A stretch of 64,000 bases of DNA from Candidatus Binatia bacterium (GCA_046757725.1 JBHHYU010000004.1:3312-67311), one strand, 5' to 3'; shown: positions 928-15,461, numbered from the stretch's first letter. Notes: generated by a model not told the origin, from the letters alone. Program-made: numbers and translations.

Positions 928-1077
928 GCGCTTTTTTAGGTTACCTGTCCCCAAACGTCCTCTGGCACTATTTCTTTCTTCCGTCTCATTTGACATTTCT
1001 GTGGGTGTTTGAAAATCTAATATAATCTGGTTTTGAAAAACAACCGGGTGTCAAATACTTCAGGGGAGAAGACTGAC

Positions 1078-1881
1078 ATGCTCGAACTTTATCATCACGA
1101 TTTGTCCGTATGTGCGCAGAAAGTGCGCTTGTGCCTGGAGGAGAAGGAGCTCAAGTGGGAAAGCCGTTACGTCGATCTCGGCAAGCGGGAACAGAAAAAG
1201 CCCGAATACCTCAGGCTCAATCCGAACGGCAACGTGCCTACGCTGGTTCATGACGGCACTGTTGTTTACGAATCCACCATTGTCAACGAATACCTTGATG
1301 ACGCTTTTCCGGAAAAGCCCTTACGGCCGGTTGATGCACTGGGCAAGGCACGGGTACGAAAATGGACGATTCAGCTTGACGTGAGCATCCATATGGCGAT
1401 GCGCACGTTGAACACTTCCATCGCTACGCGACATCGCGATATGGGGAATTACACACAGGAGCAGATTGAGGTAAAGCTCGGTACCATCGCGGACCCGGCC
1501 AAGCGCGAGCGCAAAATGACAAGCTTCCGTCAGGGAATCGAGTCTCCCTATGTACTGGAATCGCTGCAACGTTATGGGAAGCTCATCAAGGAGATGGAAT
1601 CCGAGCTTGCGGACGGCCGCCCCTGGCTGGTGGGCGAACAGTTTACGCTCGCCGATGTGGGATTTGCGTCTTACTTCACGATGATGGAAGCGTTGCAGAT
1701 CGGCTGGCTATGGGAAAAAAGCCCGCGATTTTGCGGTTGGTTCCAGAGACTGAAAGCGCGTCCTGCGTATGAGCGGGCGATCACCCGGTGGCTCAACTCA
1801 TCCAAAGAGTTGCCCCAGCGAATCAAAAGCGGCAAGGAATGTCGCGACCGACTGATACAAATCTTTAACGCGGCCGTATGA
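1078..1881 (+). CDS. Glutathione S-transferase family protein
   Basis: SVCAQKVRLCL, LNPNGNVPTL, ESTIVNEYLD, FTLADV motifs; GGGGAG RBS before ATG 1078. Confidence 0.9.
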   Translation: MLELYHHDLSVCAQKVRLCLEEKELKWESRYVDLGKREQKKPEYLRLNPNGNVPTLVHDGTVVYESTIVNEYLDDAFPEKPLRPVDALGKARVRKWTIQLDVSIHMAMRTLNTSIATRHRDMGNYTQEQIEVKLGTIADPAKRERKMTSFRQGIESPYVLESLQRYGKLIKEMESELADGRPWLVGEQFTLADVGFASYFTMMEALQIGWLWEKSPRFCGWFQRLKARPAYERAITRWLNSSKELPQRIKSGKECRDRLIQIFNAAV

Positions 1882-1899
1882 CGGGGTCGGATACGGGAT

Positions 1900-2015
1900 C
1901 GGAAGTCTTTTCTCCGAACCTTTGGTCTAGCCGCAAATAGTTTTCTTTTTTCTTTCCCTCGGCAGGTGGCATGATAGTAGCCATCGGCATAGTCAATTCG
2001 CAGCGGTCTGCCCAT
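1900..2015 (-). pseudogene. N-terminal remnant of a REP-associated (RAYT/IS200-like) Y1 transposase
   Basis: MGRPLRIDYADGYYHATCRGKEKRKLF resembles the MARPLRI..YH.TxRGN start of RAYT/Y1 transposases, then similarity is lost before the HUH motif. Confidence 0.6.
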
Positions 2016-2166
2016 GCCTTTTGCCTTTTCTATTCCTCCTTTGTTAGTATTCATTAGTGCCGATGTGGGATGTTGCCTAACCCGGTCTCGTTGAAACTTC
2101 ACGCACAAATCCTCCCGGCCATAGAGAATCAAAAGACCTCGGGTTCAGGAGTCGGAAGCGATCGCC

Positions 2167-4926
2167 ATGCCCACCCCCGAAAACCAAGCCAGGGAAAACA
2201 TCGACGCACTACTTGCCCAATGCGGCTGGATAGTGCAAGACAAGAAAGCTGCCAACTTATCCGCTGCTCGTGGCGTAGCCCTCCGGGAGTTATCATTTAA
2301 AACCGGCGAACCCGACTACACTTTGTTCGCCGACGGCAAGGCTGTCGGCACTGTGGAGGCCAAACCTGAAGGCCACTCCCTGATTGGCGTGGAGGAGCAG
2401 TCGGAGAAATACGTCAAAGCTGTTCCCTTCGGAATGCCCGCTTGGCGCTCGCCGCTTCCTTTCAGCTACGAGTCCACCGGTACGGAGACGCGCTTCACCA
2501 ACCGGCTCGATCCCGAGCCGCGCAGCCGTAACGTCTTTGCGTTTCATAAGCCGGAGACCTTGCTCAATTGGGCACGGGCCGACAAACAACTCAATCAATG
2601 TCTACGCGAGTTACCGCCGCTCGTTACCGACGGTCTCTGGAAGGCGCAGATCGAGGCGATCAACAACCTGGAAAAATCTTTTGCCGGCAACAAGCCGCGC
2701 GCCCTCATTCAGATGGCCACCGGCTCGGGAAAAACCTTCACGGCGGTCAATTTCAGCTACCGTCTGATTAAGAACGCCGGGGCTCGCCGCGTGCTCTTTC
2801 TCGTCGACCGCGGCAACTTGGGCGAGCAGACCTTCAAAGAGTTTGACCAGTTCGTCTCGCCGGTGAATAATTACAAATTTACCGAGGAGTTTATCGTTCA
2901 GCATCTTAAACGCAATGTGCTCGACGATTCCTCCCGCGTGGTGATCAGCACGGTCCAGCGCCTCTACTCCATGCTCAAAGGCGAGGCCGAGCCGCCGCCC
3001 GACCTGGACGACCTACGCATCGATGCCGCCGAGTCGCTGTACAAAGAACCCCTGCCCGTGGAGTACAACCCCAGCCTTCCCATTGAGACCTTCGATTTTA
3101 TCATCACCGACGAGTGCCACCGCTCGATTTACAACCTTTGGCGCCAGGTGCTGGAATACTTCGACGCCTATCTAATCGGCCTCACTGCCACGCCATCCAA
3201 GCAGGCCTTCGGCTTTTTCGACCAGAATCTGGTCATGGAATACAACCACGAGAAGGCCGTCGCCGACGGCGTCAACGTGAACTACGACGTGTACCGCATA
3301 GACACGGAAATTACGTCGAAAGGCTCAAAGATCGACGCCGGTTTCTACGTCGACAAACGTGATCGTCAGACACGCAAGAAACGTTGGGAGCAGCTCGATG
3401 ACGAGTTTCAATACGAAGCCGGCCAGCTCGACCGCGAGGTGGTGGCGAAAGACCAGATCCGCACTGTCCTGCAAACTTTCCGCGACAATCTGTTCACCGA
3501 CATTTTTCCCGGACGCGCCGACATGCCCAAAACGCTGATCTTTGCCAAGGACGACTCCCATGCCGAGGATATTGTCGACATCTGCCGCGAGGTGTTCGAC
3601 AAGGGCAACGACTTTTGCCAGAAGATTACCTACAAGACCACCGGAACGGACCCAAAGACGCTGATTCAGAGATTCCGCAATAGCTACAATCCACGGATCG
3701 CCGTCACTGTCGATATGATCGCTACCGGCACCGACGTCAAACCTTTGGAAGTTGTTTTTTTCATGCGCTCGGTGAAATCGCGGGGCTTCTTCGAGCAGAT
3801 GAAGGGCCGGGGCGTGCGAGTGATCTCTGAGACGGAGATGGAGCAGGTGAACCCCGGCGTCAAGCGCAAGAGCCGTTTCGTGATCGTCGATGCCGTCGGA
3901 GTCTGCGAGCGCGACATGACCGACTCCCACCCGCTAGAACGGAAGCGCAACGTGACGTTCGACAAACTGCTCGACGCCATTGCCCTTGGCAACCGGGAAC
4001 CCGAAGCGCTGGAAAGCCTTGCCGGTAGACTCGTTCGTTTGGAAAAGCGTTTCGACGAAGCCCTTGCGGGTGAAGTCCGCACAACCGCAAATGGCCAGAT
4101 ACTCTCTGAGATCGCGCAGACTTTACTTGCTTCGACAAATCTAGACAATATCGAAGCCAAAGCCAGGGAAGGAAAAGAACCCTACTATCAACCGACGGAC
4201 ACGGACTTACAAAGCTCGCAAGCCAAACTCATGCAGGAAGCCGTCGCGCCGCTGGCTAAGAACCCCGCGCTGCGCCAGCTCTTGATCAGAATCCATCAGG
4301 CCAGCGAACAGGTCATTGACATCATCTCCCGCGACCGTGTGCTGTTCGCCGGCGCATCTCAGCAAACCACGCAGAACGCCGAGCAGGTCACGAAATCGTT
4401 TCGCGATTACATCGAAAAACACAAAGCCGAGATCACCGCGCTTCAGCTACTCTACGGTCGCCCCTATCGTCACCGGCTTACGGAGCCGATGCTCAAAGAG
4501 TTGGAGAAAAAGCTCCGTGAAGAACATGCAGCCTGGACCGAAGACCGGTTATGGGATTCCTTTGCCGCCGTCGCACCGAAAAAGGTTAAGGGTCGATCCC
4601 AAGCCGGACGCTTCGCTGATCTTGTGGCCCTTGTTCGCTTCGCGCTCGAACGCGAGCAGGTTCTTCGGCCTTTTACCGACACCGTGAATCAGCGCTTCAT
4701 CGAGTGGAACGAAAGAAATATCTCGAAGGATATTGTTTTCACCCCCGAACAACGTGCCTGGCTCGAACTCATCCGCGACCATATCGCTACCAGCTTGAGC
4801 ATCGAAACCGAACACTTCAACTATGCTCCCTTCAGCCAGCGCGGCGGATTGGGGAGGGCTCATCTGCTTTTTGGCAACGATCTGCCGAAACTGTTGGATG
4901 AACTGAATGAGGTGTTAGCGGCATGA
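2167..4926 (+). CDS. hsdR: Type I restriction enzyme R subunit (EcoEI-like)
   Basis: PDY..VEAK nuclease motif, QMATGSGKT Walker A, DECH box, LTATP, QMKGRG, and EcoEI-R-like C-terminus PFSQRGG. Confidence 0.95.
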   Translation: MPTPENQARENIDALLAQCGWIVQDKKAANLSAARGVALRELSFKTGEPDYTLFADGKAVGTVEAKPEGHSLIGVEEQSEKYVKAVPFGMPAWRSPLPFSYESTGTETRFTNRLDPEPRSRNVFAFHKPETLLNWARADKQLNQCLRELPPLVTDGLWKAQIEAINNLEKSFAGNKPRALIQMATGSGKTFTAVNFSYRLIKNAGARRVLFLVDRGNLGEQTFKEFDQFVSPVNNYKFTEEFIVQHLKRNVLDDSSRVVISTVQRLYSMLKGEAEPPPDLDDLRIDAAESLYKEPLPVEYNPSLPIETFDFIITDECHRSIYNLWRQVLEYFDAYLIGLTATPSKQAFGFFDQNLVMEYNHEKAVADGVNVNYDVYRIDTEITSKGSKIDAGFYVDKRDRQTRKKRWEQLDDEFQYEAGQLDREVVAKDQIRTVLQTFRDNLFTDIFPGRADMPKTLIFAKDDSHAEDIVDICREVFDKGNDFCQKITYKTTGTDPKTLIQRFRNSYNPRIAVTVDMIATGTDVKPLEVVFFMRSVKSRGFFEQMKGRGVRVISETEMEQVNPGVKRKSRFVIVDAVGVCERDMTDSHPLERKRNVTFDKLLDAIALGNREPEALESLAGRLVRLEKRFDEALAGEVRTTANGQILSEIAQTLLASTNLDNIEAKAREGKEPYYQPTDTDLQSSQAKLMQEAVAPLAKNPALRQLLIRIHQASEQVIDIISRDRVLFAGASQQTTQNAEQVTKSFRDYIEKHKAEITALQLLYGRPYRHRLTEPMLKELEKKLREEHAAWTEDRLWDSFAAVAPKKVKGRSQAGRFADLVALVRFALEREQVLRPFTDTVNQRFIEWNERNISKDIVFTPEQRAWLELIRDHIATSLSIETEHFNYAPFSQRGGLGRAHLLFGNDLPKLLDELNEVLAA

Positions 4927-5622
4927 CTCTTAGAACTGAACCCTTGCGAGACCTCCTCCAGGCTTTTGAGTCAGGTAGCCGTCCGAAAGGCGGCGTGACA
5001 GGAATTCGTGACGGGATTCCAAGTCTCGGGGGTGAACATCTCAATCGTGACGGTGGCTTCAAATTCAACAAAATTAAATTTGTTCCGGAGACCTTTGCAC
5101 GAGCTATGACGCGCGGTCACGTGGAACCAGAAGATATTCTTGTCGTTAAGGATGGGGCGACCACAGGAAAGGTGTCATTAATTCGTAGTGATTTTCCGTT
5201 TGCCCAAGCAGTAATTAACGAGCACGTGTTTCGCCTAAAGCTAAAAGACGATTATAACTCAGCTTACGTGTTCTATTTTTTATATTCGCTCGCCGGTCAG
5301 CAACAGATTTTGTCCGATTTTCGAGGCGCTGCTCAGGGCGGTATCAGCCAAGCGTTTGTCGACAAGGTATTTGTCCCTGTACGACCTCTCGATGAACAGC
5401 AACAGATCCCTCTCTGCGCAACCTCAATTGCCGATTCGTGACTTCAAGACATTCACTGTCGCCTTTCCATCAAAATCTGAACAGGGAAGAGTTGTCCAAG
5501 AAATTGAGCGCCACTTAAACATAGTTGATGGGCTGGAAGTAGTCGTGAACACGAACCTCCTGCGTGCTACCCGCCTCCGCCAGTCGATCCTACAGCGGGC
5601 GTTTGAGGGGAAGCTCTGCTAA
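4923..5622 (+). pseudogene. hsdS: Type I specificity subunit, internally deleted and frameshifted near 5408-5413
   Basis: TRD1 ends at PLDEQQQI; the +1 frame continues SAQPQL..PSKSEQGRVV..RLRQSILQRAFEGKL. About 700 bp in total, too short for a two-TRD HsdS. Confidence 0.8.
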
Positions 5623-5682
5623 ATGGTAAGAGTTACATACGACAAGTAGATCGTCAAACGTGGTCAGTTCCTAAAACGGGAG

Positions 5683-8181
5683 TTGGTTATGACCCAGAAC
5701 TTGCTCGGAACAACGGATATCGAGTCTGGACTTAAGGCATTGAATGAACTCGTAGACACAATCGAATGCAATCGTCCAGACTGGAATGAAGCGGATACGC
5801 GCTTCCAATTTATAGACCCCTTTGTGACCACGTGTCTGGGATGGCCAAAAAGCGAGATGCGATTAGAACAACGGCTCGAACGCACGTACACCGATTACGA
5901 ACTTGCAATTCCAAGGGCAATAATAATTGAGGCTAAACGGGAGGGTGACTATTTCGAATTGCCCGCAAATCCCGAACAACGGCTAATAGTTTCGTTGAAA
6001 TCAGTCATGGAGTTGGACAAGCGAGCAGACAACGCCATCCGGCAAGTACAAGCATATTGCAGTGGTAGGGGTACGCCGATTGCCATTGTTTGTAATGGGC
6101 ACCAGCTAATCGCCTTCTTGGCCAGTCGCCAGGATGGTCAACCGCCTTTAGAAGGTAAGTGTCTTCTAATAAACGGGCATGAGCAATTTTTAAAACAGTT
6201 TCCTCTTTTGTGGCAAAATTTGTCTCCCGCCGGCACTAGAGAACGGCGAATATTTCGGCTACTTACGACGGGAGCCGAAACGGGTATACCAAAAAAATTT
6301 TCCTCTTATTTGGTCAATTATCCCTCGTTTCGATATAAAAGCGCAATTCAAGCTAATCTTCGGACTGTTGCAGAACTATTGATAGAGGACATTGTAAAAA
6401 CACCGGAGATTGAGTCGCGTTTTTACAAGGTATGCTATTGTGAGAGCGGTGCGTTAGCACACAACGCCCTTTTAAGCCGCAAAATCTTGCTCGCGCGCTA
6501 TTCTGCGTTATTTCGACCAAGTGATGCTGCATCTAACGTAAGATCGGTAAAACCGGACAAAGACACCCTCGCCTTAACACCTGAGATCATGGCGGAGGCG
6601 TTATCCCATCGACCAATAGTGTTAATTGGTGACGTTGGTGTCGGTAAAACTTCCTTTTTAAAACATCTCATGTACGTTAGCGCTTTCGAGGAATTTCAAC
6701 GCGCAATCTACGTGTATATCGATCTTGGGAGCCAGGCAGCTTTGGAGTTAGATCTGCGTGATTTTGTCTTGTCGGAAATAGAGAGACAACTTATCGATAG
6801 ATACAAGGTCAATGTTAGGGAAGCGACCTTTGTTCGTGGCGTATACTATCGCGAAATCGAACTCTTTCGCGCGGGAATTTACGGAAGTCTTTACGCAACA
6901 AATCGATCCGAGTATGAAAATAAGCTTCTGGAATTTTTAGAAAAAAAGGTAGAGAGTAGCGCACAACATCTTCAGCAATCGGTGCAACACCTAGTCGCGG
7001 CGCGCACAAAACAAGTGATCATAATGATAGACAACGCCGATCAACGAAGCTTAGAGGTTCAACAGGAAGCGTTTCTGATAGCGCAGAACATTGCTCAGCA
7101 ATGGCGAGCTGCCGTGTTCGTTACACTAAGACCTCAGACGTTTCATCAATCTAAGCAGGCGGGAACATTTTCGGCCTATCCACAGAAGATTTTTTCCATC
7201 TCTCCACCACGGGCAGATCTGGTCGTTGAAAAGCGATTAGCCTTTGCCCTCGAGGTTGCAGAAGGAAGGCTTCCTGTTGATCAATTTCAAGGCATTGGAC
7301 TTAATTTTAAGAGCCTAGCGCTGTTTTTGAAAGCGCTTCTTTACTCTTTAAAAAACAATAAGGATTTAATCGAACTGATTTCTAATATTACTGGCGGCAA
7401 TATACGAGAAATCATAGATTTAACAACTAAATCTATAGGTAGTCCTAATGTGGATGCTGGTAAGATCATCGGTATTATGGAAAAAACTGATAAGTATCTT
7501 GTGGCCGTTCACGAGTTTTCCAAATCCGCACTTCTAGGGGAATATTCCCACTATCACGCCGATTCGTCACTTGCACTTAACATGTTTGACGTTCGGTTTC
7601 CGGATGAGCGGGAGCATTTTTTGGGTCCCATGATAGCGGCCTTTTTGAATTATGACGGTTCACATAGGAATCGTGAGGGCTTTGTTAAGGCTGATAACGT
7701 TATTATCGAAATGCAGTCTTGGGGGTATACGCCGCAACAGTCGGAGGCGGCTCTCAGACGAATGACCAATAAGCGGCTAATTGAAACAACTGAACGGATT
7801 ACGTTTGCCGAAGATGTAACCGGGCTGATCGGAGATATGCCTGCTGCGTTTCGTATTACCACCGTGGGGGTTTATCATTTGTTAAAATGGGCACCGTCTT
7901 TTGCCTACCTGGATGCGATGGTTTTTGATACGCCGATTTTTGACGAGGCAGTCCTAGACGAACTAGCAAAAGAGGCTGCGTCTTTTGAAATTGGCAAAAG
8001 GTATCTGCGAGCAAAAGCTTTTCTTACATATCTTAACACCGTGTGGCACAAGTCGGGCCTTGGAGCGCCATACTTCAGTTGGTCGGGACTAGTTCCGGCA
8101 GGCGAGGCTGAATTTGAAAGCGTCGAGCGCGTAATTGCTAGGCAATCCCTACCTGACAGAAATCAAAATAGGGGACGGTAA
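5683..8181 (+). CDS. PD-(D/E)xK (HsdR_N-like) nuclease fused to a P-loop NTPase; putative defence protein
   Basis: NEADTR..IDP..LGW, DY..IIIEAKR, AIRQ..Y in the N-terminus; Walker A GDVGVGKT; Walker B IIMIDNAD. Confidence 0.75.
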   Translation: MVMTQNLLGTTDIESGLKALNELVDTIECNRPDWNEADTRFQFIDPFVTTCLGWPKSEMRLEQRLERTYTDYELAIPRAIIIEAKREGDYFELPANPEQRLIVSLKSVMELDKRADNAIRQVQAYCSGRGTPIAIVCNGHQLIAFLASRQDGQPPLEGKCLLINGHEQFLKQFPLLWQNLSPAGTRERRIFRLLTTGAETGIPKKFSSYLVNYPSFRYKSAIQANLRTVAELLIEDIVKTPEIESRFYKVCYCESGALAHNALLSRKILLARYSALFRPSDAASNVRSVKPDKDTLALTPEIMAEALSHRPIVLIGDVGVGKTSFLKHLMYVSAFEEFQRAIYVYIDLGSQAALELDLRDFVLSEIERQLIDRYKVNVREATFVRGVYYREIELFRAGIYGSLYATNRSEYENKLLEFLEKKVESSAQHLQQSVQHLVAARTKQVIIMIDNADQRSLEVQQEAFLIAQNIAQQWRAAVFVTLRPQTFHQSKQAGTFSAYPQKIFSISPPRADLVVEKRLAFALEVAEGRLPVDQFQGIGLNFKSLALFLKALLYSLKNNKDLIELISNITGGNIREIIDLTTKSIGSPNVDAGKIIGIMEKTDKYLVAVHEFSKSALLGEYSHYHADSSLALNMFDVRFPDEREHFLGPMIAAFLNYDGSHRNREGFVKADNVIIEMQSWGYTPQQSEAALRRMTNKRLIETTERITFAEDVTGLIGDMPAAFRITTVGVYHLLKWAPSFAYLDAMVFDTPIFDEAVLDELAKEAASFEIGKRYLRAKAFLTYLNTVWHKSGLGAPYFSWSGLVPAGEAEFESVERVIARQSLPDRNQNRGR

Positions 8182-8283
8182 ATCGGCGCGAACATGGAAG
8201 AGGCGGCGAGCGGACTCGTTCAGAAACTCTGGAACTACTGCAACATCATGCCTGCCTTCGGCGCACGTAAACCTGCGGGATGA

Positions 8284-8340
8284 CCTGTCTGCGCCTGCCT
8301 GCCACTGCGTGGTGGTAGGCAGGTGCAACACACAGGCAGG
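8284..8340. repeat. Nested mini palindromic element: 27-nt CCTGTCTGCG/TGCAACACACAGGCAGG containing a 30-nt CCTGCCTGCCAC..GTGGTAGGCAGG insert
   Basis: Absent from intact hsdM at the aligned position; CCTGYCTG...AGGCAGG terminal inverted repeats. Confidence 0.75.
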
Positions 8341-8392
8341 CGGCCTGTCGTATGGCGACTACGTTGAGCAGTTGACGTTTCTGCTCTTCCTC

Positions 8393-8419
8393 TGTACCTG
8401 CGCATACAATGCAGGCAGG
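8393..8419. repeat. 27-nt mini element ending GCAGGCAGG inserted in the hsdM remnant
   Basis: Insertion between the CTC and AAG codons relative to intact hsdM. Confidence 0.65.
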
Positions 8420-8666
8420 AAGATGGCGGATGAGCAGAGCAAGCTGTTATTCAACAAGTTATCGCCGAGCAACAAAGCGTCGTCGCTGAAGTGGAGCACC
8501 GCTTGAGTGTGGTAGGAGGGACTGGAAGCACTCGTGAAAGCCGAGTTCCAGCGTGGTACCCGCCTCCGCCAGTCAATCCTACAACGACCTTTTCTGGGCA
8601 GTTAGTCTAATTTAACTATATTCTGTAGGTGATTATTCGTATTATGTGTGAATTTTAGCACAGCTA

Positions 8667-8706
8667 ATATACTATAGTTGCATTGACTTAGTATATGTAA
8701 TATGAT
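8667..8706 (+). promoter_or_regulatory. sigma70-type promoter with overlapping inverted repeat (candidate AbiEi operator)
   Basis: TTGCAT(8678)-17 bp-TATGAT(8701); ATATACTA(8667)/TAGTATAT(8689) inverted repeat straddles the -35 box. Confidence 0.55.
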
Positions 8707-8748
8707 GTAGTTCAACTATTAAGGGAATAACTGCTTAGAAAATATACT

Positions 8749-9561
8749 ATGGACACAGTGTCTGGACTCGGAAGACTCGACAGGGAAAGACTTGCGTTGG
8801 TTCTACGCGGAACGACGGGGACCATCTCAGTCGAGGACACCTCTAAAATCCTTTCCATTCCCGCCAATACTGCTGGGAAGATGTTGTCGAGATGGCGAAA
8901 GAACGGATGGCTTTCACGTGTGCGTCGAGGCTTGTATGTCCCAGTACCGCTGGAATCTCAAACCGCTGATGTTCCTCTCGAAGATCCATGGATAGTTGCG
9001 GATAGGTTGTTTTCTCCTTGCTACATCGGTGGATGGAGTGCGGCAGAGCATTGGGGCCTCACGGAGCAAATCTTTAGAACTATTGTCGTCATGACAACAC
9101 GGACACCAAGGGACCAGTCGCCAAAACTTAAAGGAACAAGTTTTTTGCTGCGAACGATTTTGAAGAAAGCCTTGTTCGGGCTGAAGCCGGTCTGGCGGGG
9201 AAGAGTCAAAGTATCAGTCTCTGATCCAACCCGCACGGTGTTGGACATGTTACATACACCGCGGCTTGGAGGAGGGATTCGTTCGACAGTCGATATTTTG
9301 ATTAGTTATTTGAAGTCTGACAGCAAGAACACAAGCCAGTTACTCGAATACGCCGAACGACTAGATAACGGTGCAGTTTATAAACGGTTAGGTTTCCTTC
9401 TAGAACGGTTTGTGTCGGAAGAAACGGAACTCATTGGCGAGTGTCATTGTCGGCTGACGAAAGGAAACGCAAAGGTCGATCCCTCCCTGTCTGCCGATAG
9501 GCTTGTCACAAAGTGGCGGCTCTGGGTTCCGGAACATTGGGTGACAGGAACACCTAAATGA
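8749..9561 (+). CDS. Type IV toxin-antitoxin AbiEi-like antitoxin
   Basis: N-terminal wHTH with RVRRGLY, YIGGWSAAEHWGLTEQ, VSDPTRTVLD, KRLGFLLE; ATGA-type overlap with the next gene. Confidence 0.85.
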   Translation: MDTVSGLGRLDRERLALVLRGTTGTISVEDTSKILSIPANTAGKMLSRWRKNGWLSRVRRGLYVPVPLESQTADVPLEDPWIVADRLFSPCYIGGWSAAEHWGLTEQIFRTIVVMTTRTPRDQSPKLKGTSFLLRTILKKALFGLKPVWRGRVKVSVSDPTRTVLDMLHTPRLGGGIRSTVDILISYLKSDSKNTSQLLEYAERLDNGAVYKRLGFLLERFVSEETELIGECHCRLTKGNAKVDPSLSADRLVTKWRLWVPEHWVTGTPK

Positions 9562-10865
9562 TCGATAAAAGAGAAGTGCTCGATTTTTCCCGAGAACTCG
9601 GTTTAGCACCGAATGTGGTCGAAAAGGATTACGTGCTAGGCTGGCTCTTGGCTGGGATCGGTCATCATGAAGAATTGAGCGTAAGCTGGTTCTTCAAGGG
9701 TGGCACGTGTCTGAAAAAGTGCTTTTTCGAGACGCACCGTTTCTCTGAAGACTTGGACTTTACCACCACGGATTCAAATCAGCTAAACAAGGAGTTTCTT
9801 ACTAAAGCGTTCACAGAGATTTCCACGTGGATCTACGAAGTGGTTGGTATCGAGCTTCAAACGGAATTGATTCGTTTCGACGTTGTTCAAAACCCACGGG
9901 GAGGGACTTCAATTGAGGGGCGAATAGCCTTCCGGGGGCCGATGGGAATGGGTGGAGATTTACCACGGGTCAGACTAGACCTAACGGCCGATGAGGTGCT
10001 GGTCCTAGAACCTGTGATGCGTAAAGTCCACCATCCCTATTCCGACAATCCAGGGGATGGTATCGAGATTTTGTGTTATGCCTTTGAAGAGGTCTTTGCC
10101 GAAAAGACGCGAGCTCTGAAGGAACGACTCAGGCCGCGCGATCTGTACGACGTTGTGCACTTGTATCGACACGAAACATTCCGGCCGGAGCGGCAAACCA
10201 TGATCGATACACTTTCAAAAAAGTGCAAGTTTACGGGAATATCTTTACCCACCATAGAAGAATTTACGGAGCATCAAGGCCGTAAGGAGTTAGAAGCTGA
10301 ATGGGAAAACATGCTTAGACGCCAGCTGCCGGCGCTACCGCCTTTTGATCAATTTTGGAGTGAACTCCCGGCTGTATTTCAGTGGCTCTACGGGGTGGCT
10401 GAACGGATCGAACGACCAGCAATCCCCACAATGGGCACTGGAATCGATGAGAGTTGGCGCCCACCAGTCATGGCCCAGACGTGGAGTTCATCGGTTCCGC
10501 TTGAAATCATTAGATTTGCAGCATCAAACCGTTTATGTGTGAATCTTTCCTACCAGGGCACCACAAGGCTTATTGAGCCGTATTCTTTGCGGCGGACTCG
10601 CAATGGTCATCTATTACTGTATGCTATAAGGCATAACACAGGTGAGGATAGGTCTTACCGAGTAGATCGGATACAAGGAGCCAAAGCTTCTTCAGTATCC
10701 TTCGCCCCACGATATCTCGTCGAACTCGCGGCCTCAGGCCCGATTTCTACGCCACCAATTGAGCGCAGTTCGTGTGTGATTCCAAGGGTTAGGAAGCCGA
10801 GAAGAAGGCATACAATGTGGAACAGGCTCGGACCAACATACGTATATGAATGCAATTATTGCTGA
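9558..10865 (+). CDS. AbiEii-like nucleotidyltransferase toxin with C-terminal WYL domain; frame continues past TGA to 10973
   Basis: VEKDY, FKGGTCL, RFSEDLDF, AEK..RPRDLYD; WYL-like RLIEPYSL..RSYRVDRI. Confidence 0.85.
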   Translation: MIDKREVLDFSRELGLAPNVVEKDYVLGWLLAGIGHHEELSVSWFFKGGTCLKKCFFETHRFSEDLDFTTTDSNQLNKEFLTKAFTEISTWIYEVVGIELQTELIRFDVVQNPRGGTSIEGRIAFRGPMGMGGDLPRVRLDLTADEVLVLEPVMRKVHHPYSDNPGDGIEILCYAFEEVFAEKTRALKERLRPRDLYDVVHLYRHETFRPERQTMIDTLSKKCKFTGISLPTIEEFTEHQGRKELEAEWENMLRRQLPALPPFDQFWSELPAVFQWLYGVAERIERPAIPTMGTGIDESWRPPVMAQTWSSSVPLEIIRFAASNRLCVNLSYQGTTRLIEPYSLRRTRNGHLLLYAIRHNTGEDRSYRVDRIQGAKASSVSFAPRYLVELAASGPISTPPIERSSCVIPRVRKPRRRHTMWNRLGPTYVYECNYC

Positions 10866-10981
10866 AAAAAATTCTACCGGAAAAAGCATGACTCTGCTCT
10901 GCGGGATCACAAAGATATGCACGGATACAGATGTTCCGGCCGTAGAGGGTATTTAGTAGACACGAGGTATTAAAGCACTCG

Positions 10982-12469
10982 ATGGAATCTTCAACGATCG
11001 TTCAAAAACTTTGGAACTACTGCAACATCCTGCGGGATGACGGGCTCTCGTATGGCGACTACGTCGAGCAGTTGACGTTTCTGCTGTTCCTCAAAATGGC
11101 GGATGAGCAGAGCAAACCGCCGTTTGATAAGCCGTCGCCGATTCCGAAGGACTTCGACTGGCAAAGCCTCTTGAAACGCGACGGCGATGAGCTGGAGACG
11201 CACTATCGCCATGGTCTTGAATCGCTGGGCAAAAAAAAGGGCATGCTCGGCGTTATATTTCGCAAGGCGCAGAATAAGATCCAGGACCCGGCGAAGCTCC
11301 GGCGGCTGATCGTCGATCTCATCGACAAGGAACAGTGGTCGTCGTTATCCGCTGACGTGAAGGGCGACGCTTACGAGGGTCTACTTCAGAAGAACGCCGA
11401 GGACGTGAAGGGTGGGGCGGGACAGTACTTTACACCTCGTCCGCTGATCGTTGCTATGGTCGACGTGATGCGGCCGGAACCGAAGATGACGATCTGCGAT
11501 CCGGCGTGCGGCACGGGTGGCTTCCTGCTGGCAGCCTACACTCATCTTTCCGATCCGAAACGTTATCAGCTCGACCGTGAGGAGAAGAAACGCCTCGCCC
11601 TTGGCACCCTCTGGGGTGTGGAGCTGGTGGATGGTGTGGCCCGGCTTTGCTGCATGAACATGCTGCTCCACGGCATCAGCGGCGACGGGGCAGAAGAAGT
11701 GCCGGTGGAGATCCGCGACGCTCTTAGCAGCCACGGCGGGAAGTACTACGAGATGGTGATGACCAATCCGCCTTTCGGCAAAAAGAGCAGCGTGACCATC
11801 GTGAACGAAGAAGGCAAGGCGGAAAAGGAAAGCCTAACGATTCACCGGGACGACTTCTGGGCGTCCACCAGCAACAAGCAGCTCAACTTTCTCCAGCATG
11901 TCTTCACGATCCTCAAACAACATGGCCGGGCGTCCATCGTGGTGCCGGACAACGTGCTGTTTGAAGGCGGAGCGGGGGAAACGGTTCGCCGCGAAATTCT
12001 CAAGCAGGCAGACGTGCATACGCTTCTGCGTCTGCCCACGGGCATCTTCTACGCCCAGGGCGTTAAGGCGAACGTTCTTTTCTTCGACCGCAAGCCCGCA
12101 CAGGAAAAACCCTGGACAGAAAAGCTCTGGATCTACGATCTTCGGACCAACAAGCACTTCACATTGAAGGAAAACCAGCTCAAGCGCTCCGACCTGGACG
12201 ACTTCGTCGCCTGCTACCACGCCGAGAACCGCCATAAACGAAAGGAGACGGAGCGATTCAAGTGCTTCGCCTACGAAGACCTCACCAAACGGGACAAGGT
12301 CAATTTAGACATCTTCTGGCTCAAAGATGAATCCCTCGAAGAATCGGCGAACCTCCCGGCTCCCGGCATCATCGCCGCTAACATTACGGAAGACCTCGAA
12401 GCCGCCCTAGAACAGTTTCACGAAATCGTTGGCGATTTGGGAACGGGAGAAGGGGGCGGAAAGAACTGA
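10982..12469 (+). CDS. hsdM: Type I restriction-modification N6-adenine methyltransferase
   Basis: GQYFTPR, DPACGTGGFL, NPPF motifs. Confidence 0.95.
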   Translation: MESSTIVQKLWNYCNILRDDGLSYGDYVEQLTFLLFLKMADEQSKPPFDKPSPIPKDFDWQSLLKRDGDELETHYRHGLESLGKKKGMLGVIFRKAQNKIQDPAKLRRLIVDLIDKEQWSSLSADVKGDAYEGLLQKNAEDVKGGAGQYFTPRPLIVAMVDVMRPEPKMTICDPACGTGGFLLAAYTHLSDPKRYQLDREEKKRLALGTLWGVELVDGVARLCCMNMLLHGISGDGAEEVPVEIRDALSSHGGKYYEMVMTNPPFGKKSSVTIVNEEGKAEKESLTIHRDDFWASTSNKQLNFLQHVFTILKQHGRASIVVPDNVLFEGGAGETVRREILKQADVHTLLRLPTGIFYAQGVKANVLFFDRKPAQEKPWTEKLWIYDLRTNKHFTLKENQLKRSDLDDFVACYHAENRHKRKETERFKCFAYEDLTKRDKVNLDIFWLKDESLEESANLPAPGIIAANITEDLEAALEQFHEIVGDLGTGEGGGKN

Positions 12470-12574
12470 CCACCTGAGATAATTTAGAGCCAAAGCCGGA
12501 ACGGGATCGGGAGGCCGTACGCCTGCCGTATGTAAAGTAGGTGCTTGCGAGGAGATAATTCGGGACAATAAAAC

Positions 12575-13605
12575 ATGGATTTGGTTGCCGAACCGCAATT
12601 GATATCTGACGGGGTTATTGGACACAGCCCAACCATGGTCAGGATTTACAAACTGGCCGAGAAGCTGTCGAAAATAACAACCAGCGCATTGATTTTTGGG
12701 GAAAGCGGTACAGGCAAGGAAAACCTTGCAAGGACCATCCATACTAACAGCCCACGCAGAAACGAACCATTCGTAGTAGTCGACTGTTCGGGACTCTCGG
12801 AAGTATTGGCCGAAAGTGAACTGTTCGGTCATGCTAGAGGTGCTTTTACAGATGCGGTTGCTTCCCGTGATGGACTAATCAAGCGTGCTACTAAGGGAAC
12901 GCTATTCTTAAAATCAGTGGAGACACTACCCAAACAGCTCCAAGGAAAGATGCTTGAGGTGCTTGAACATAAAATGCTGACACCACTCGGCGGAACTGAG
13001 GAAATCAAACTAGATCTTAGAGTAATATCAGCATCGACTAAGAGTCTCAAAGAGACGGTTTCTATGGGGCAATGCAGAGAAGATCTCTATCACCGGCTGA
13101 GTGTCATCGAGATAAGTTTACCCCCTCTGCGCAACAGAAAAGAGGATATCCCGCTGTTTATCAGACACTGTATTCGGAAGCACGCGGATTCCATGAAAAA
13201 ACAGGTCACAACGATTAGAAGTGACGCACAAGATTGTCTTATAGACTACCCATATACAGGGAACATTGCAGAACTAGAAAAAATCGTTGAGTATGCCGTC
13301 GCGCTCACTGATAGAGATACTATAGGGACTGATGATTTGCCTCTAAGCGTTAGGAAAAGTACGACCCAAGATGAGCTGGAAGTTTTTGAACACACAGATC
13401 CGGCTGAGGCGAAATTATTCACAACAAGGGCAACTCTCTGGATGAAGAACTAGCTATCCACGAAAGATCACTCCTTTTGGCTGCCTTAAAAAAGGCTAAC
13501 TGGGTACAGAAGAGAGCGGCGGAACTCCTGGGAATTGAGTACCGGTCACTTAGACACCGGCTAGAAAAATATGGCCTCCTGAAATTTCCACTGCGCGAGG
13601 AATGA
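12575..13605 (+). pseudogene. sigma54-interacting AAA+ domain with Fis-type HTH; frameshifted at ~13406-13450, no sensory domain
   Basis: GESGTGKE, ESELFGH, GAFTDA; the HTH (AALKKANWVQKRAAELLGIEYRSLRHRLEKYG) lies in another frame and ends at 13605. Confidence 0.75.
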
Positions 13606-13665
13606 TTGAAAACGTTGTGGACTTGAGTGGGAAAAGAGAACGGAGCGTAAAGGAGGTAACATCCA

Positions 13666-14358
13666 TTGGCTAAACGAGCTCAGCTAGTCTGCCAGCATCT
13701 TGAGAACATTTCTTCGGAAGCATTGGACAAGTACCAGGATGTCGTTCGCAGTTACGTTCGCGGTCGAACAGGAATCTATGCACTGTACCGGCGAAACAAG
13801 CTTTACTACGTGGGGTTAGCGAGTAATTTAAGGACTCGGCTCAAGCAGCATTTACGCGATCGGCATAAGGGAATTTGGGACCGATTCAGCGTCTACCTTA
13901 CGATCGGCGACAGCCACCTCAAAGAACTGGAATCCCTTATCTTGAGAACGGTCAAGCCGGGAGGTAATACACAGACCGGCAAATTTATTAAGTCTGAAAA
14001 TCTGCGAGGCCGACTGGCCCGCGATCTTAGAAGAAAACAGCGAGAGGAAATCAACTGGCTCATTGGCCGTACGACCACCCCCACAGTTAAACGCTCCAGC
14101 AAGAAAAAGCGCGTAAAAGGCGAGCCGATCCTCGCAGGTTACTTTAACCAGTCAACCAGACTAAGGGCCGTGTATAGAGGTAAACCAGTCGGGGCACGCG
14201 TCCGAAAAAACGGGCTAATCCGGTACAAGAACAAAGATTTCAAATCTCCCTCTCTGGCTGGACACGCGGTTGTTAAGCGTTCCTGCAATGGCTGGACATT
14301 TTGGAGGTATGAACGGGCTCCCGGCGATTGGGTTCCCTTGGATGAACTAAGACGCTGA
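13666..14358 (+). CDS. GIY-YIG nuclease with C-terminal RAMA/DUF4357-like domain
   Basis: GIYAL..YYVG..LRTRLKQH; C-terminal FKSPSLAG..NGWTFW. Confidence 0.75.
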   Translation: MAKRAQLVCQHLENISSEALDKYQDVVRSYVRGRTGIYALYRRNKLYYVGLASNLRTRLKQHLRDRHKGIWDRFSVYLTIGDSHLKELESLILRTVKPGGNTQTGKFIKSENLRGRLARDLRRKQREEINWLIGRTTTPTVKRSSKKKRVKGEPILAGYFNQSTRLRAVYRGKPVGARVRKNGLIRYKNKDFKSPSLAGHAVVKRSCNGWTFWRYERAPGDWVPLDELRR

Positions 14359-14644
14359 GTTAAGAGCACAGCGGTCTAAGATCATGACAATGTGGTCGAA
14401 TCTCGACTTTTGCTTTTGCCGAAACCACGCCTGATACCTAACAAACGTTTCCTTTAAAAAACAAAAGGCACCGGAGGCCTGGTTAACCCGCCTTCTAAGC
14501 CCAGGGAAACTAACGTCCGCGAGCGCGAAGAGTCCTACGGATCACGCCGGTAAAGATAAATATATTGGAACGAGAGTTTTCTGTATCGAGGCTGGCTAGG
14601 ATCGGAATTCTCCAGATTCCGTGAGGGGACAAAGGCGGGCCGTG

Positions 14645-14827
14645 CTATTTTATCCCGCCACGCATGCGCTTTTGCTTGGTCAGATCAACAATTTGGCCGC
14701 CCTGCAGCACATAAACCGGTGTACTGGTCTGTAAACCAAGCCTCCTTGCCCGCCGGGCCGCTCGACGCAGGGCCTTCGCTGAGGCTCGAATATCAGGATC
14801 TTTTGAACCTATTGCTTGTTGCTTCAC
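14645..14827 (-). CDS. Small basic hypothetical protein, probable partner of the zeta-like ATPase
   Basis: GTGA overlap with the upstream ATPase gene; ALRRAARRARR..TPVYV..GQIV pattern. Confidence 0.55.
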   Translation of the reverse strand: MKQQAIGSKDPDIRASAKALRRAARRARRLGLQTSTPVYVLQGGQIVDLTKQKRMRGGIK

Positions 14828-15348
14828 GGATTATCTCCAGACGCTATTAGACGAGGGATGCTTCCTGAATTATCGTACAGTATCCAATGATCCACTAGTG
14901 CCTGATAGACATTATGAAAATTCCGTAGCCCGCTGTCAAACCGACGCCGTACTACGGACTCTGGCACATTGTGGCCCCCTTGTGCCACCCTCGCAGCCAC
15001 ACGGGCTAGAGCTAGGTCAGGTGTGGGCAGGTTGAGAAATATCAGTTTGACGTGATACCTCGCCGCACGCCAGCGAGGGATCATTCGTGAGTAACGGCGC
15101 CCGCTTAATGTGGTTTCAAAGGCAAAACTCTTTCCCTCACGAGTACGCCGCTTGATTTCCGCCAGCATTAGCCGACCCGCTCTTATAGCAGCTTGGTCCG
15201 GGTCAAAGGGAGAAAGCCCTGCGGCAATCAGGTCCACGTTGATAAAGTCAGGGCAGTCCGCCTCGCGCGGCAAGAACTCGAGGGCGAAAGTAGTCTTTCC
15301 CGCTCCGTTCGGCCCCGCAATTATAACGATCTTCTTCTCATTGGCCAT
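14824..15348 (-). CDS. Zeta-toxin-like P-loop ATPase/kinase
   Basis: IAGPNGAGKTT, FAFETTLSG, RVAQGGHNVP, YDNS. Confidence 0.85.
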   Translation of the reverse strand: MANEKKIVIIAGPNGAGKTTFALEFLPREADCPDFINVDLIAAGLSPFDPDQAAIRAGRLMLAEIKRRTREGKSFAFETTLSGRRYSRMIPRWRAARYHVKLIFLNLPTPDLALARVAARVAQGGHNVPESVVRRRFDSGLRNFHNVYQALVDHWILYDNSGSIPRLIASGDNP

Positions 15349-15461
15349 TTGTCAGTGAAAATTGCAAGGAAAACGAGGACATTCTCCTTTTTTTTGACCA
15401 TCAACAACTCCCCTTTTGTATTGGTGAGTTCAGCGTCTGCTCGTAGGCGGAGAGGAGCCGG

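What the first reader, a model, noticed from the sequence alone, without database searches (positions are those of the whole stretch)
4923..12469. Type I R-M locus acting as a tandem defence-cassette array, with an hsdM'::'hsdS scar between cassettes
Seen: the order is hsdS - [nuclease-NTPase] - hsdM 5' fragment fused to an hsdS 3' fragment - [AbiEi/AbiEii-WYL] - intact hsdM. Each cargo block therefore has an hsdS 3' end on its left (5568-5622 and 8557-8610 share TACCCGCCTCCGCCAGTC) and an hsdM 5' start on its right (8194 and 10982). The fusion falls at the EQQ start of the HsdS conserved helix. Inference: units of 'hsdS-cargo-hsdM' are gained or lost by recombination at conserved hsd ends. 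This would be an integrase-free way of stacking defence genes inside an R-M operon. No recombinase is visible in the window.
Basis: partly seen in the sequence, partly recalled or inferred. Interest (0 to 1): 0.78.

Follow-up and report, generated by a model that had tools for sequence, protein, structure and literature searches.

The report
Stacked defence genes inside a restriction operon
A restriction-modification operon carries two unrelated defence modules between its specificity and methylase genes, separated by a decayed fusion of pieces of those two genes, and similar fusions in unrelated bacteria suggest how such operons collect defence genes without a dedicated recombination enzyme.

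Summary
On the + strand lie hsdR, a truncated hsdS, an 832-aa P-loop NTPase, an hsdM 5' piece fused to an hsdS 3' piece, AbiEi/AbiEii-WYL and an intact hsdM. Contigs from two samples carry the joints, so a chimera is unlikely.

The order R-S-M is shared by this hsd family across phyla. Of 65 loci with both genes, 32 hold more than 1 kb between hsdS and hsdM. A Verrucomicrobia MAG has three cargo blocks separated by two further hsdM'::'hsdS fusions. No integrase, rve transposase or resolvase lies on the contig.

The window's joint is illegitimate (5-7 nt microhomology), frameshifted, and interrupted by three small insertions. hsdS is itself broken. No excision variant was seen. This is a fossil, not a working shuffling device.

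My best mechanism is inferred, not shown. A related 'hsdS-AbiE-hsdM segment recombined in by homology in hsdM on one side and an illegitimate joint on the other.

Embedding of defence genes in Type I operons is already known. The recurring scars are the new part.

The parts
2167..4926 (+). hsdR, intact (919 aa), EcoAI/EcoEI-like; its stop overlaps the hsdS start
   Evidence: Pfam ResIII, EcoEI_R_C, HSDR_N. Aligns over residues 3-919 with HsdR of many loci.
4923..5622 (+). hsdS remnant: TRD1 plus the start of the central conserved region (frame of 4923-5441), then the last about 68 codons in another frame (5416-5622)
   Evidence: Methylase_S 1.3e-6. Frames. Residues 7-162 match 8-164, and the tail matches 385-402, of a 402-aa HsdS of G004.
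5683..8181 (+). cargo 1: 832-aa P-loop NTPase with a Cdc6/NB-ARC-like ATPase core and a possible N-terminal PD-(D/E)XK domain
   Evidence: AAA_22. Foldseek Cdc6 2.5e-6 and NRC3 4.7e-6. D71/E83/K85 invariant. No PADLOC or NCBIfam hit. 1330 homologues at E<=1e-5.
8194..8468 (+). hsdM' : first about 56 codons of an hsdM, in four matching blocks, broken by stops
8285..8340 (+). 56-nt palindromic insertion in hsdM' (ends CTGTCTGC / CAGGCAGG); two further insertions lie at 8252-8271 and 8393-8419
   Evidence: The same ends and the same site occur in fragments of G021 and G099. There are 16 copies in G099 against 0 in the control, and only this one in G000.
8462..8470 (+). illegitimate joint: the last letters matching hsdM (as at 11135-11141) overlap the first hsdS-type codons (A-E-Q-Q)
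   Evidence: Read. The parents are not available, so the microhomology is inferred.
8470..8610 (+). 'hsdS: last about 47 codons of a second hsdS, with a 1-nt indel
   Evidence: Best DNA match is to hsdS of G023 (80% of 117 nt), not clearly to the window's own hsdS (82% of 67 nt).
8749..9561 (+). cargo 2a: AbiEi
   Evidence: Pfam AbiEi_4 and AbiEi_1. PADLOC AbiEi 5.1e-114.
9558..10865 (+). cargo 2b: AbiEii with a C-terminal WYL domain
   Evidence: Pfam. PADLOC AbiEii 3.6e-180.
10982..12469 (+). hsdM, intact (495 aa)
   Evidence: Pfam. PADLOC MTase_I 1.2e-193.
12575..13453 (+). RtcR/PspF-like AAA+ piece without CARF or HTH parts, downstream of hsdM
   Evidence: PADLOC RtcR_PspF2 profile positions 167-422 of 481. 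Sigma54_activat.
13666..14358 (+). GIY-YIG / RAMA protein (candidate defence family PDC-S14)
14824..15348 (-). zeta-toxin-like AAA_33 kinase; last island gene before 3-HAO (15462-15968)

Best explanation
The region is a Type I restriction-modification operon of a widespread family whose genes run hsdR-hsdS-hsdM. In this family the junction between hsdS and hsdM is a preferred place for embedded defence and toxin-antitoxin genes.

Shown: two unrelated cargo modules lie there, a P-loop NTPase and AbiEi/AbiEii-WYL. Between them lies a fossil joint. It consists of the first about 56 codons of an hsdM that once followed the NTPase gene, fused out of frame to the last about 47 codons of a second, divergent hsdS that once preceded AbiE.

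Inferred: a DNA segment 'hsdS-AbiE-hsdM from a related hsd locus was recombined in. On one side there was ordinary homologous exchange inside the conserved hsdM, which acted as the anchor. On the other side there was an illegitimate joint at a short microhomology. This is homology-facilitated illegitimate recombination. Such an event needs no integrase. It leaves hsdM whole and does not displace the older cargo, so cargo stacks. It leaves a short hsdM 5' stump, here joined to the incoming hsdS tail.

Inferred: the event is old and probably did not happen in this genome. The operon is now decaying, because hsdS is truncated and frameshifted. The cargo genes are intact.
For: The joint: the hsdM-like text ends in letters also found in the intact hsdM at 11135-11141, and these overlap the first hsdS-type codons.

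A second case with both parents on hand is L064 scar 2. There 7 letters (TGGCGGA) are shared by that locus's own hsdM and hsdS at the joint.

The two hsdS ends are no more alike (82% of 67 nt) than the scar is to hsdS of another genus (80% of 117 nt). This points to two alleles, not a fresh duplication.

The AbiEii-hsdM junction is collinear in G021 (78% over 185 nt) and G099 (84% over 74 nt). An hsdM 5' stump precedes AbiEi in G099 and G004 as well.

Stump ends vary (profile positions 20 to 67) in the 15 short 5' matches listed, of which at least two (L031, L024:9660) belong to whole genes. Site-specific recombination would not give this.

Other stumps sit left of other cargo: Fic in L071, L080 and G013, and DarTG in G013.

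Mirror-image 3' stumps lie right of cargo: hsdR 3' pieces in L087, L114 and L115, hsdS tails in L084 and L135, and hsdM 3' pieces in relatives.

No PF00589, PF00665 or PF00239 match lies on contig C4, and none of the 8 cargo proteins of L064 and L071 scanned is a recombinase.

None of 60 loci with at least 3 kb held downstream of hsdM has a second hsd gene there.

One 15,426-nt contig of run X1 spans 2000-14549. Contigs of run X2 span both joints.
Against: Donor and recipient are unknown, so the microhomology in the window rests on proxies.

Homology-facilitated illegitimate recombination is known to me only from naturally transformable laboratory bacteria. That knowledge is recalled, and no paper on it was read here. 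Competence of this organism is unknown.

In all three hsdM'::'hsdS joints the retained pieces are roughly the conserved blocks of the two genes: hsdM up to codon 41-56, and hsdS from the EQ helix or later. Random illegitimate joints do not predict this. It fits a homology-guided cassette process better.

The palindromic insertion in the scar belongs to a repeat family that has no other copy in this genome. The scar may therefore have arrived ready-made, and the event cannot be placed.

The contigs show no population variation at the joints. Contigs drop rare variants.
Confidence: 0.5

Rival explanations
1. Tandem systems followed by deletion. A second complete hsd system with AbiE lay directly behind the first. 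It got there by duplication, or by single-crossover integration of a circular element through hsdM homology. A later deletion then ran from codon 56 of the first hsdM to the last 47 codons of the second hsdS.
For: A single deletion at a microhomology gives exactly this out-of-frame fusion. L130 has two full hsdS genes in tandem, so partial tandem states exist.
Against: None of 60 loci with at least 3 kb downstream of hsdM shows a second hsdR, hsdS or hsdM. Three independent deletions (the window and two in L064) would each have had to end near the gene ends. The stumps without an hsdS tail (L071, G013, G021) each need a further deletion.
Confidence: 0.22
2. Units 'hsdS-cargo-hsdM' move as cassettes, perhaps as circles closed at an hsdM'::'hsdS joint. 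They enter and leave by RecA-dependent crossover in the conserved hsd ends, and the array is still active.
For: A single crossover of such a circle in the hsdM 5' block would give exactly the order seen. In the three known joints the retained pieces are about the conserved blocks. L064 has three blocks with two joints, and both joints are open in frame from the hsdM start to the hsdS stop.
Against: The first joint of each cassette still needs an illegitimate event. The three joints have three different breakpoints. The repeats in the window are short and only 76-92% alike. No joined form was seen in four runs. The scar is frameshifted and carries three insertions. Most cargo-bearing loci have no scar: 29 of the 32 with a gap over 1 kb show none at 12 bits or more, 30 if L080 is not one of the 32.
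Confidence: 0.18
3. A site-specific recombinase or transposase encoded elsewhere inserts cargo at hsd gene ends and duplicates them, as integrative islands do at tRNA genes.
For: Duplicated gene ends beside inserted DNA are typical of integrase-borne islands (general knowledge). The genome holds 10 PF00589 matches on other contigs.
Against: Breakpoints vary from stump to stump. No recombinase of three families lies on the contig or among the cargo proteins scanned. The hsdM 3' pieces do not fold as hairpins (z -0.26 to +1.07). No inverted or direct repeats other than the hsd pieces bound the blocks.
Confidence: 0.06
4. Assembly chimera of two strains joined at the conserved hsd pieces.
For: The genome is a 233-contig MAG. 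Conserved hsd blocks from other organisms are present in the same samples: a joint at 8244-8351 in run X3 carries 24 other letters.
Against: One contig of X1 spans 2000-14549 with 2 differences. In X2, from another sample, contigs 6299-8311 and 8282-11889 span the NTPase-hsdM' boundary and the fusion. Both samples may be sources of the MAG, so this support is not fully independent. Similar architectures occur in other genomes.
Confidence: 0.03

Closest known systems
Defence and toxin genes embedded in Type I R-M operons: PrrC in EcoprrI, DarTG2 between hsdS and hsdR in EPEC, rlo/mlo ORFs of Campylobacter jejuni hsd loci, and 'guilt by embedding'
   Same: Unrelated defence or TA genes lie on the same strand between two genes of one Type I system. 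The sources are passages of PMC12707154, PMC12255303, 10.1101/2024.01.29.577857 and PMC5183652, which cites Miller et al. 2005.
   Different: Those passages give no mechanism. The preprint has 0 occurrences of 'recombination'. The NAR paper only calls the site a potential recombination hotspot. Here two modules are stacked and separated by a gene-fragment scar, and the operon order is R-S-M.
Homology-facilitated illegitimate recombination in naturally transformable bacteria (recalled; no paper read here)
   Same: One homologous anchor plus one microhomology joint, no recombinase, and foreign DNA added next to the anchor.
   Different: Not demonstrated here. Donor, recipient and uptake route are unknown. 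No paper holding both this term and 'defense island' or 'restriction-modification' was among the 12 listed; each listed paper had 0 occurrences of the term.
Integron cassette arrays
   Same: Tandem promoter-poor cargo blocks in one orientation, separated by a recurring boundary element.
   Different: No tyrosine recombinase lies on the contig. The boundaries are pieces of hsd genes with variable ends, not attC hairpins.
Cassette-like replacement of restriction genes at the E. coli immigration control region (Sibley and Raleigh 2004; seen only as a reference entry and in the review text)
   Same: Alternative defence contents sit at one locus and are exchanged through flanking homology without a mobile element.
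   Different: There the flanks are core genes and contents replace each other. Here the flanks are the hsd genes themselves and contents accumulate.
Phase-variable hsdS shufflons
   Same: Repeated hsdS pieces lie within a Type I locus.
   Different: Those are inverted repeats acted on by an invertase to swap TRDs. Here the pieces are direct and decayed, no invertase is present, and no TRD is involved.

Membership tests
Type I restriction-modification system (EcoAI/EcoEI-like, order hsdR-hsdS-hsdM) | HsdR with helicase core and EcoEI-type C-terminal domain | tested here: met
   ResIII 1.1e-37, EcoEI_R_C 4.3e-36. The NCBIfam type I endonuclease models match at 7.4e-110 but below their equivalog cut-offs.
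Type I restriction-modification system (EcoAI/EcoEI-like, order hsdR-hsdS-hsdM) | HsdM with N6_Mtase and HsdM_N domains, full length | tested here: met
   It aligns over residues 1-491 with homologues.
Type I restriction-modification system (EcoAI/EcoEI-like, order hsdR-hsdS-hsdM) | Intact HsdS with two target-recognition domains and two conserved regions in one frame | tested here: not met
   There are two frames, about 160 codons are missing, and only TRD1 is present. The contigs of X1 and X2 show no indel there.
Type I restriction-modification system (EcoAI/EcoEI-like, order hsdR-hsdS-hsdM) | Gene order shared with the family | tested here: met
   In all 59 loci in which hsdR, hsdS and hsdM were detected they lie in the order R-S-M on one strand.
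AbiE (type IV toxin-antitoxin / abortive infection) | Adjacent AbiEi and AbiEii genes | tested here: met
   Pfam. PADLOC 5.1e-114 and 3.6e-180. The genes overlap by 4 nt. Activity was not tested.
Integron | IntI tyrosine recombinase beside the array | tested here: not met
   No PF00589 match on contig C4. All 10 matches lie on other contigs.
Integron | attC-type folded recombination sites between cassettes | tested here: not met
   The boundary elements are hsd gene pieces. Six hsdM 3' sequences (five fragments from relatives and the 3' end of the window's intact hsdM) fold no better than shuffles (z -0.26 to +1.07).
Product of homology-facilitated illegitimate recombination | Homologous anchor on one side of the inserted DNA | tested here: met
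   Conserved hsdM lies to the right of AbiE. The stump and the intact gene share blocks of 92%, 92% and 76% identity.
Product of homology-facilitated illegitimate recombination | Short microhomology at the other joint | tested here: inconclusive
   There is a 5-7 nt overlap in the window, judged against proxies. There is a 7-nt overlap in L064 scar 2, judged against that locus's own genes. L064 scar 1 is not clean.
Product of homology-facilitated illegitimate recombination | Identified donor and recipient; dependence on RecA and DNA uptake | not testable with these tools
   No parental sequences and no experiment.
STAND/Avs-like defence NTPase with nuclease effector | P-loop NTPase core of the Cdc6/NB-ARC type | tested here: met
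   AAA_22 is over its cut-off and NACHT is below. Foldseek gives Cdc6 2.5e-6 and NRC3 4.7e-6 on a model with mean pLDDT 76.9.
STAND/Avs-like defence NTPase with nuclease effector | N-terminal PD-(D/E)XK nuclease domain | tested here: inconclusive
   No Pfam match at E<=5. D71 and E83-x-K85 are invariant in 25 of 25. The best fold matches are BpuSI, DrdV and an HsdR fragment at E 0.02-0.03. None reaches E<=0.001. The two VIA libraries were not available.
STAND/Avs-like defence NTPase with nuclease effector | Match to a known Avs or other defence model | tested here: not met
   No PADLOC family at E<=0.001. Avs4 appears only at E 3.2e-3, probability 0.47.

The most novel reading that the evidence does not exclude
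Type I operons of the R-S-M family work as recombinase-free cassette platforms. Their conserved gene ends serve as portable homology arms. Defence and TA modules from any related locus can therefore be added beside existing ones. Short stumps (hsdM', 'hsdS, 'hsdR, 'hsdM) and hsdM'::'hsdS adaptors mark each addition. Arrays of three or more blocks build up this way, and the cargo outlives the restriction system that collected it. This would be an integron-like way of gathering defence genes that runs on general recombination alone.
Probability: 0.3. Interest if true: 0.75.

Novelty: new variant of a known kind. Interest (0 to 1): 0.5.

Why it matters
Defence genes are known to sit inside other defence operons, and this is already used to find new systems ('guilt by embedding'). 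How they get there, and how islands grow where no mobile element is visible, is open.

Gene-end stumps beside the cargo are molecular fossils of the insertion events. They record that an insertion took place and where its joints lie. They can be counted across genomes.

If the pattern holds, the question becomes testable. A census of breakpoints could be made, and a transformation experiment could be run in a competent laboratory strain.

The locus also shows the later fate. The restriction system decays (hsdS broken here; only hsdM stumps left in G099) while the cargo stays intact.

Tried and rejected
1. Arrays of hsdM 3' pieces in relatives as silent hsdS cassettes. A PF01420 search of 5 genomes found no Methylase_S match inside those arrays. 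Rejected.

2. Integron-like attC sites. The six hsdM 3' pieces fold no better than shuffles and no integrase lies on the contig. Rejected.

3. The three insertions in the scar as a repeat family of this genome. There is no enrichment and no second copy. The family is abundant only in G099.

4. Excision or alternative joints in public runs. None was seen at 5585/8574 or 8194/10982 in four runs of one study. These are contigs, which drop rare variants, so this is no evidence against excision. The single joint at 8244-8351 in X3 carries 24 other letters and reads as another organism's intact hsdM.

5. Promoter and terminator scan of 1900-15500. It gave fewer sites than shuffles (7 against 9.4, and 12 against 15.9). 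Nothing usable.

6. Origin of the hsdM stump by DNA identity. It is 89-94% identical to ten alleles, the window's own included. Uninformative.

7. Fic modules behind hsdM stumps in five loci share only the hsdM pieces at DNA level. These are independent events, not one travelling module.

8. Naming cargo 1. PADLOC, NCBIfam and Pfam on its N- and C-terminal thirds gave nothing. A whole-protein fold search found only the ATPase core.

9. Literature. Four searches found embedding in Type I operons. The listings and the passages I read held no description of hsdM'::'hsdS scars or of an insertion mechanism. Supplementary tables, for example those of the embedding preprint, were not open and may list such cassettes.

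Full report
WHAT IS THERE. Between a glutathione S-transferase gene (1033-1881) and a 3-hydroxyanthranilate dioxygenase gene (15462-15968, minus strand) lies an island of about 13 kb. On the + strand it holds the following:
- hsdR (2167-4926; ResIII, EcoEI_R_C)
- an hsdS remnant (4923-5622)
- an 832-aa P-loop NTPase (5683-8181)
- a non-coding stretch with hsd homology (8194-8610)
- AbiEi (8749-9561)
- AbiEii with a WYL domain (9558-10865)
- an intact hsdM (10982-12469)
- a piece of an RtcR/PspF-like AAA+ protein matching profile positions 167-422 of 481 (12575-13453)
- a GIY-YIG/RAMA protein (13666-14358)

A zeta-toxin-like kinase lies on the minus strand (14824-15348).

THE OBSERVATION.
- The hsdS 3' end (5527-5609) recurs at 8516-8598 (83 nt, 77%).
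- The hsdM 5' end recurs at 8216-8468 in four blocks. They are 36 nt at 92%, 13 nt at 100%, 52 nt at 92% and 49 nt at 76%.
- tblastn gives E 1e-12 for the hsdM piece and 5e-6 for the hsdS piece.
- Neither piece has another copy in the 3.53-Mb genome.

The hsdM-like text runs to about codon 56. It then passes, one frame off, into codons reading AEQQSVVAEVEH, which is the start of the distal conserved helix of HsdS. The last letters that still match hsdM (as at 11135-11141) overlap the first hsdS-type codons by 5-7 letters.

- hsdS itself is broken. TRD1 and the start of the central conserved region are in one frame and the last about 68 codons in another. Against a 402-aa HsdS of G004, residues 7-162 align to 8-164 (58% identity) and the tail aligns to 385-402. 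About 160 codons are therefore missing.
- The hsdM piece carries three insertions (8252-8271, 8285-8340, 8393-8419) and stops.
- The hsdS piece has a 1-nt indel.

IS IT AN ARTEFACT? The stretch is held by runs of one study of hydrothermal vent metagenomes. In X1 a single contig of 15,426 nt spans 2000-14549 with 2 differences. In X2, from another sample, contigs 6299-8311 and 8282-11889 span the NTPase-to-hsdM' boundary and the fusion. Both samples may be sources of the MAG, so the support is not fully independent. A chimera is still unlikely. No contig joins 5585 to 8574 or 8194 to 10982. The only joint at the scar (X3, 8244 to 8351, with 24 other letters) reads as another organism's intact hsdM.

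RELATIVES IN THE SAME ORDER. A search with HsdM in 41 genomes and mapping of the fetched loci show that the order hsdR-hsdS-hsdM is shared. They also show that the content between hsdS and hsdM varies:
- nothing in G027
- an Rpn-like (Transposase_31) gene in G040
- a 589-aa AlbA_2/HATPase_c_4 protein in G038
- pieces of both in G037, where hsdR and hsdS were not found
- a 324-aa protein plus a PIN protein in G023

The NTPase is rare. It was found in 3 of 123 genomes of the order, the own genome included. AbiEii-WYL at 70% identity or more occurs in two other genomes, G021 and G099. Three copies at about 50% identity in another family have no hsd neighbours.

The AbiE module keeps company with hsdM pieces.
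- In G099 the order is hsdM'(3-20), AbiEi, AbiEii, hsdM'(1-87), a DarT remnant, 'hsdM(438-488).
- In G004 an hsdM'(3-34) precedes AbiEi at a contig end.
- In G021 the order is AbiEi, AbiEii, hsdM'(1-65), an 850-nt block, hsdM.
- The AbiEii-hsdM spacer of the window is collinear with G021 (78% of 185 nt) and G099 (84% of 74 nt).

The AbiE-hsdM unit, and perhaps the stump before it, is therefore older than these genera.

THE INSERTIONS IN THE SCAR. The 56-nt insertion at 8285-8340 is an imperfect palindrome with the ends CTGTCTGC and CAGGCAGG. Insertions with the same ends sit at the same site (after the codons for LRDD) in the hsdM stumps of G099 and G021. The pattern has 16 copies in G099 against 0 for the reversed control. 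It has one copy each in G021 and G004 and none in G013. In the window's genome the scar's copy is the only one. It is a small dispersed palindromic repeat that is active in a related genus but not here. This suggests that the scar, or the whole island, came from such a genome.

THE FAMILY AT LARGE. A scan of one genome per species with an HsdM alignment found 596 relatives. The best 80 loci (60-80% identical) come from many bacterial phyla and from archaea.
- In all 59 loci where hsdR, hsdS and hsdM could be placed, the order is R-S-M.
- Of 65 loci with hsdS and hsdM, the gap is 150 bp or less in 25, 150-1000 bp in 8 and over 1000 bp in 32.
- Of 59 loci with hsdR and hsdS, the gap exceeds 1 kb in 10. 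The middle class of this second measure is unreliable, because TRD starts are poorly detected.
- Profile searches in six frames found extra hsdM 5' pieces in L064 (two), L071 and L080.
- They found extra hsdS tails before hsdM in L084 and L135.
- tblastn found hsdR 3' pieces between hsdR and hsdS in L087, L114 and L115.

L064 is a Verrucomicrobia MAG. It reads as follows:
- hsdS
- an nSTAND3 NTPase
- hsdM'(about 1-47)::'hsdS
- DUF5131 plus a 387-aa protein
- hsdM'(about 1-41, with internal loss)::'hsdS
- an HTH/M78 protein plus DUF4411
- hsdM

Its second joint lies in 7 letters shared by that locus's own hsdM and hsdS. L071 is a proteobacterial MAG and reads hsdS, SIR2, HerA, hsdM'(1-43), Fic, hsdM. 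None of the 8 cargo proteins scanned in these two loci is a recombinase. None of 60 loci with at least 3 kb held behind hsdM has a second hsd gene there.

WHAT THIS MEANS. The joints themselves are not crossovers between like sequences. All three have different breakpoints, and two show short overlaps.

Stumps also occur without an hsdS tail, and mirror-image 3' stumps occur to the right of cargo. Stump ends vary (profile positions 20-67 for the 5' pieces listed). One process explains all of these. A piece of a related locus enters, pairs with the resident operon inside a conserved hsd gene, and is joined at its other end illegitimately within a few hundred bases of the anchor. The anchor gene stays whole, the resident cargo stays, and a stump is left.

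This is my inference. It matches homology-facilitated illegitimate recombination as I recall it from work on transformable bacteria, which I did not read here. Two facts fit it less well. The retained pieces are close to the conserved blocks of the two genes, and both joints of L064 are open in frame. Both fit a homology-guided cassette process better, so I keep that as the main rival together with deletion in a tandem intermediate.

STATE OF THE LOCUS. With hsdS truncated and frameshifted, the system probably neither methylates nor restricts, unless the unrelated Type I system on contig C191 lends a subunit, which I did not test. The cargo ORFs are open. In G099 only hsdM stumps are left around AbiE, so the cargo can outlive the operon.

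CARGO 1. The 832-aa protein belongs to a large unnamed family: 1330 proteins at E<=1e-5 among 8000 scored candidates. The model has mean pLDDT 76.9 and an ATPase core like Cdc6/ORC and plant NB-ARC receptors. The N-terminal 255 residues model as an alpha-beta-beta-beta-alpha-beta core with invariant D71 and E83-x-K85. The best matches are to restriction-enzyme chains, but only at E 0.02-0.05. 'Nuclease-NTPase' is plausible but not shown.

WHAT IS KNOWN. Embedding in Type I operons is established. Examples are PrrC, DarTG2 between hsdS and hsdR with the remark that the site may be a recombination hotspot, thousands of genes embedded in BREX, DISARM and Type I systems, and the rlo and mlo ORFs of Campylobacter hsd loci. 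For all of these papers I saw passages only. In four searches I found no description of hsd-fragment scars between stacked cargo, nor of the mechanism. Supplements were not open.

VERDICT. The locus is a new variant of a known kind. It is a fossil of cargo stacking in a Type I operon. Its value is that the scars recur and can be counted.

Noticed in passing
L013 (G001:C131), L014 (G021:C294 28000-46000), L015 (G004:C78), L016 and L017 (G002), L019 (G013:C8): Short hsdM 3' pieces (last 35-80 codons) occur in arrays 0.9-4.5 kb apart in same-family genomes. From the rows there are 36 pieces in 12 of 41 genomes (33 in 11 of 40 without the unpublished G010). In G021 four to five of them follow the full hsdM. 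By eye the blocks between them are TA-like genes (HEPN/MNT, VapBC, HigBA, Fic, BrnT) but also substrate-binding proteins. The window's genome has none.
   Followed up: partly
window 8285-8340; G099 genome-wide: A small palindromic repeat with the ends CTGTCTGC and CAGGCAGG has 16 copies in G099 against 0 in the control, and a single copy in the window's genome, inside the scar. A second kind of hairpin insertion (starting CCTTCGG) sits after the codons for YGDY in the stumps of G099 and G004.
   Followed up: partly
L015:2538-2733 and 3668-3853, L019:4783-4905, L023:1660-1928, L013:10073-10309: Several hsdM 3' pieces in three or four genomes share a palindromic insertion at one and the same site. 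These copies therefore descend from one another and are not independent stumps.
   Followed up: no
L064:5739-5939 and 7970-8160: Both hsdM'::'hsdS fusions of the Verrucomicrobia locus are open in frame from the hsdM start codon to the hsdS stop (66 and 63 codons). They might keep translational coupling between stacked cargo genes. The chance of both being in frame is about 1 in 9, so this is only a hint.
   Followed up: no
L087:4174-4389, L114:1974-2063, L115:5595-5768: Pieces of the hsdR 3' end lie between hsdR and hsdS, to the right of inserted DNA, in three loci from different phyla. They mirror the hsdM 5' stumps.
   Followed up: partly
window 12575-13453: The sigma-54-type AAA+ ORF behind hsdM matches only the middle of RtcR/PspF-type CARF-AAA-HTH models (positions 167-422 of 481). 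It looks like a gene remnant.
   Followed up: no
L018 (G013:C362) 1887-3848: An hsdM 5' stump (codons 2-67) is followed directly by genes that look, by eye, like DarT and DarG. G099 keeps a DarT-like remnant between two hsdM pieces. No family search was run on them.
   Followed up: no
L031 (G023:C7) 983-10024: The closest hsd locus (HsdR 67-83%, HsdM 78-96% identical) reads through several frame changes in both genes. This may be decay or long-read indel error.
   Followed up: no
L130:7232-10001: Two full-length hsdS genes lie in tandem before hsdM in one MAG.
   Followed up: no
L018:6880-6905, L019:6110-6135, L053:4930-4955, L014 near 4894: A conserved motif of about 22 nt (GAGAAAAGGGGAT[AG]AGTCCAAT) precedes four hsdM 3' pieces in three genomes. 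It has no copy in the window's genome.
   Followed up: no
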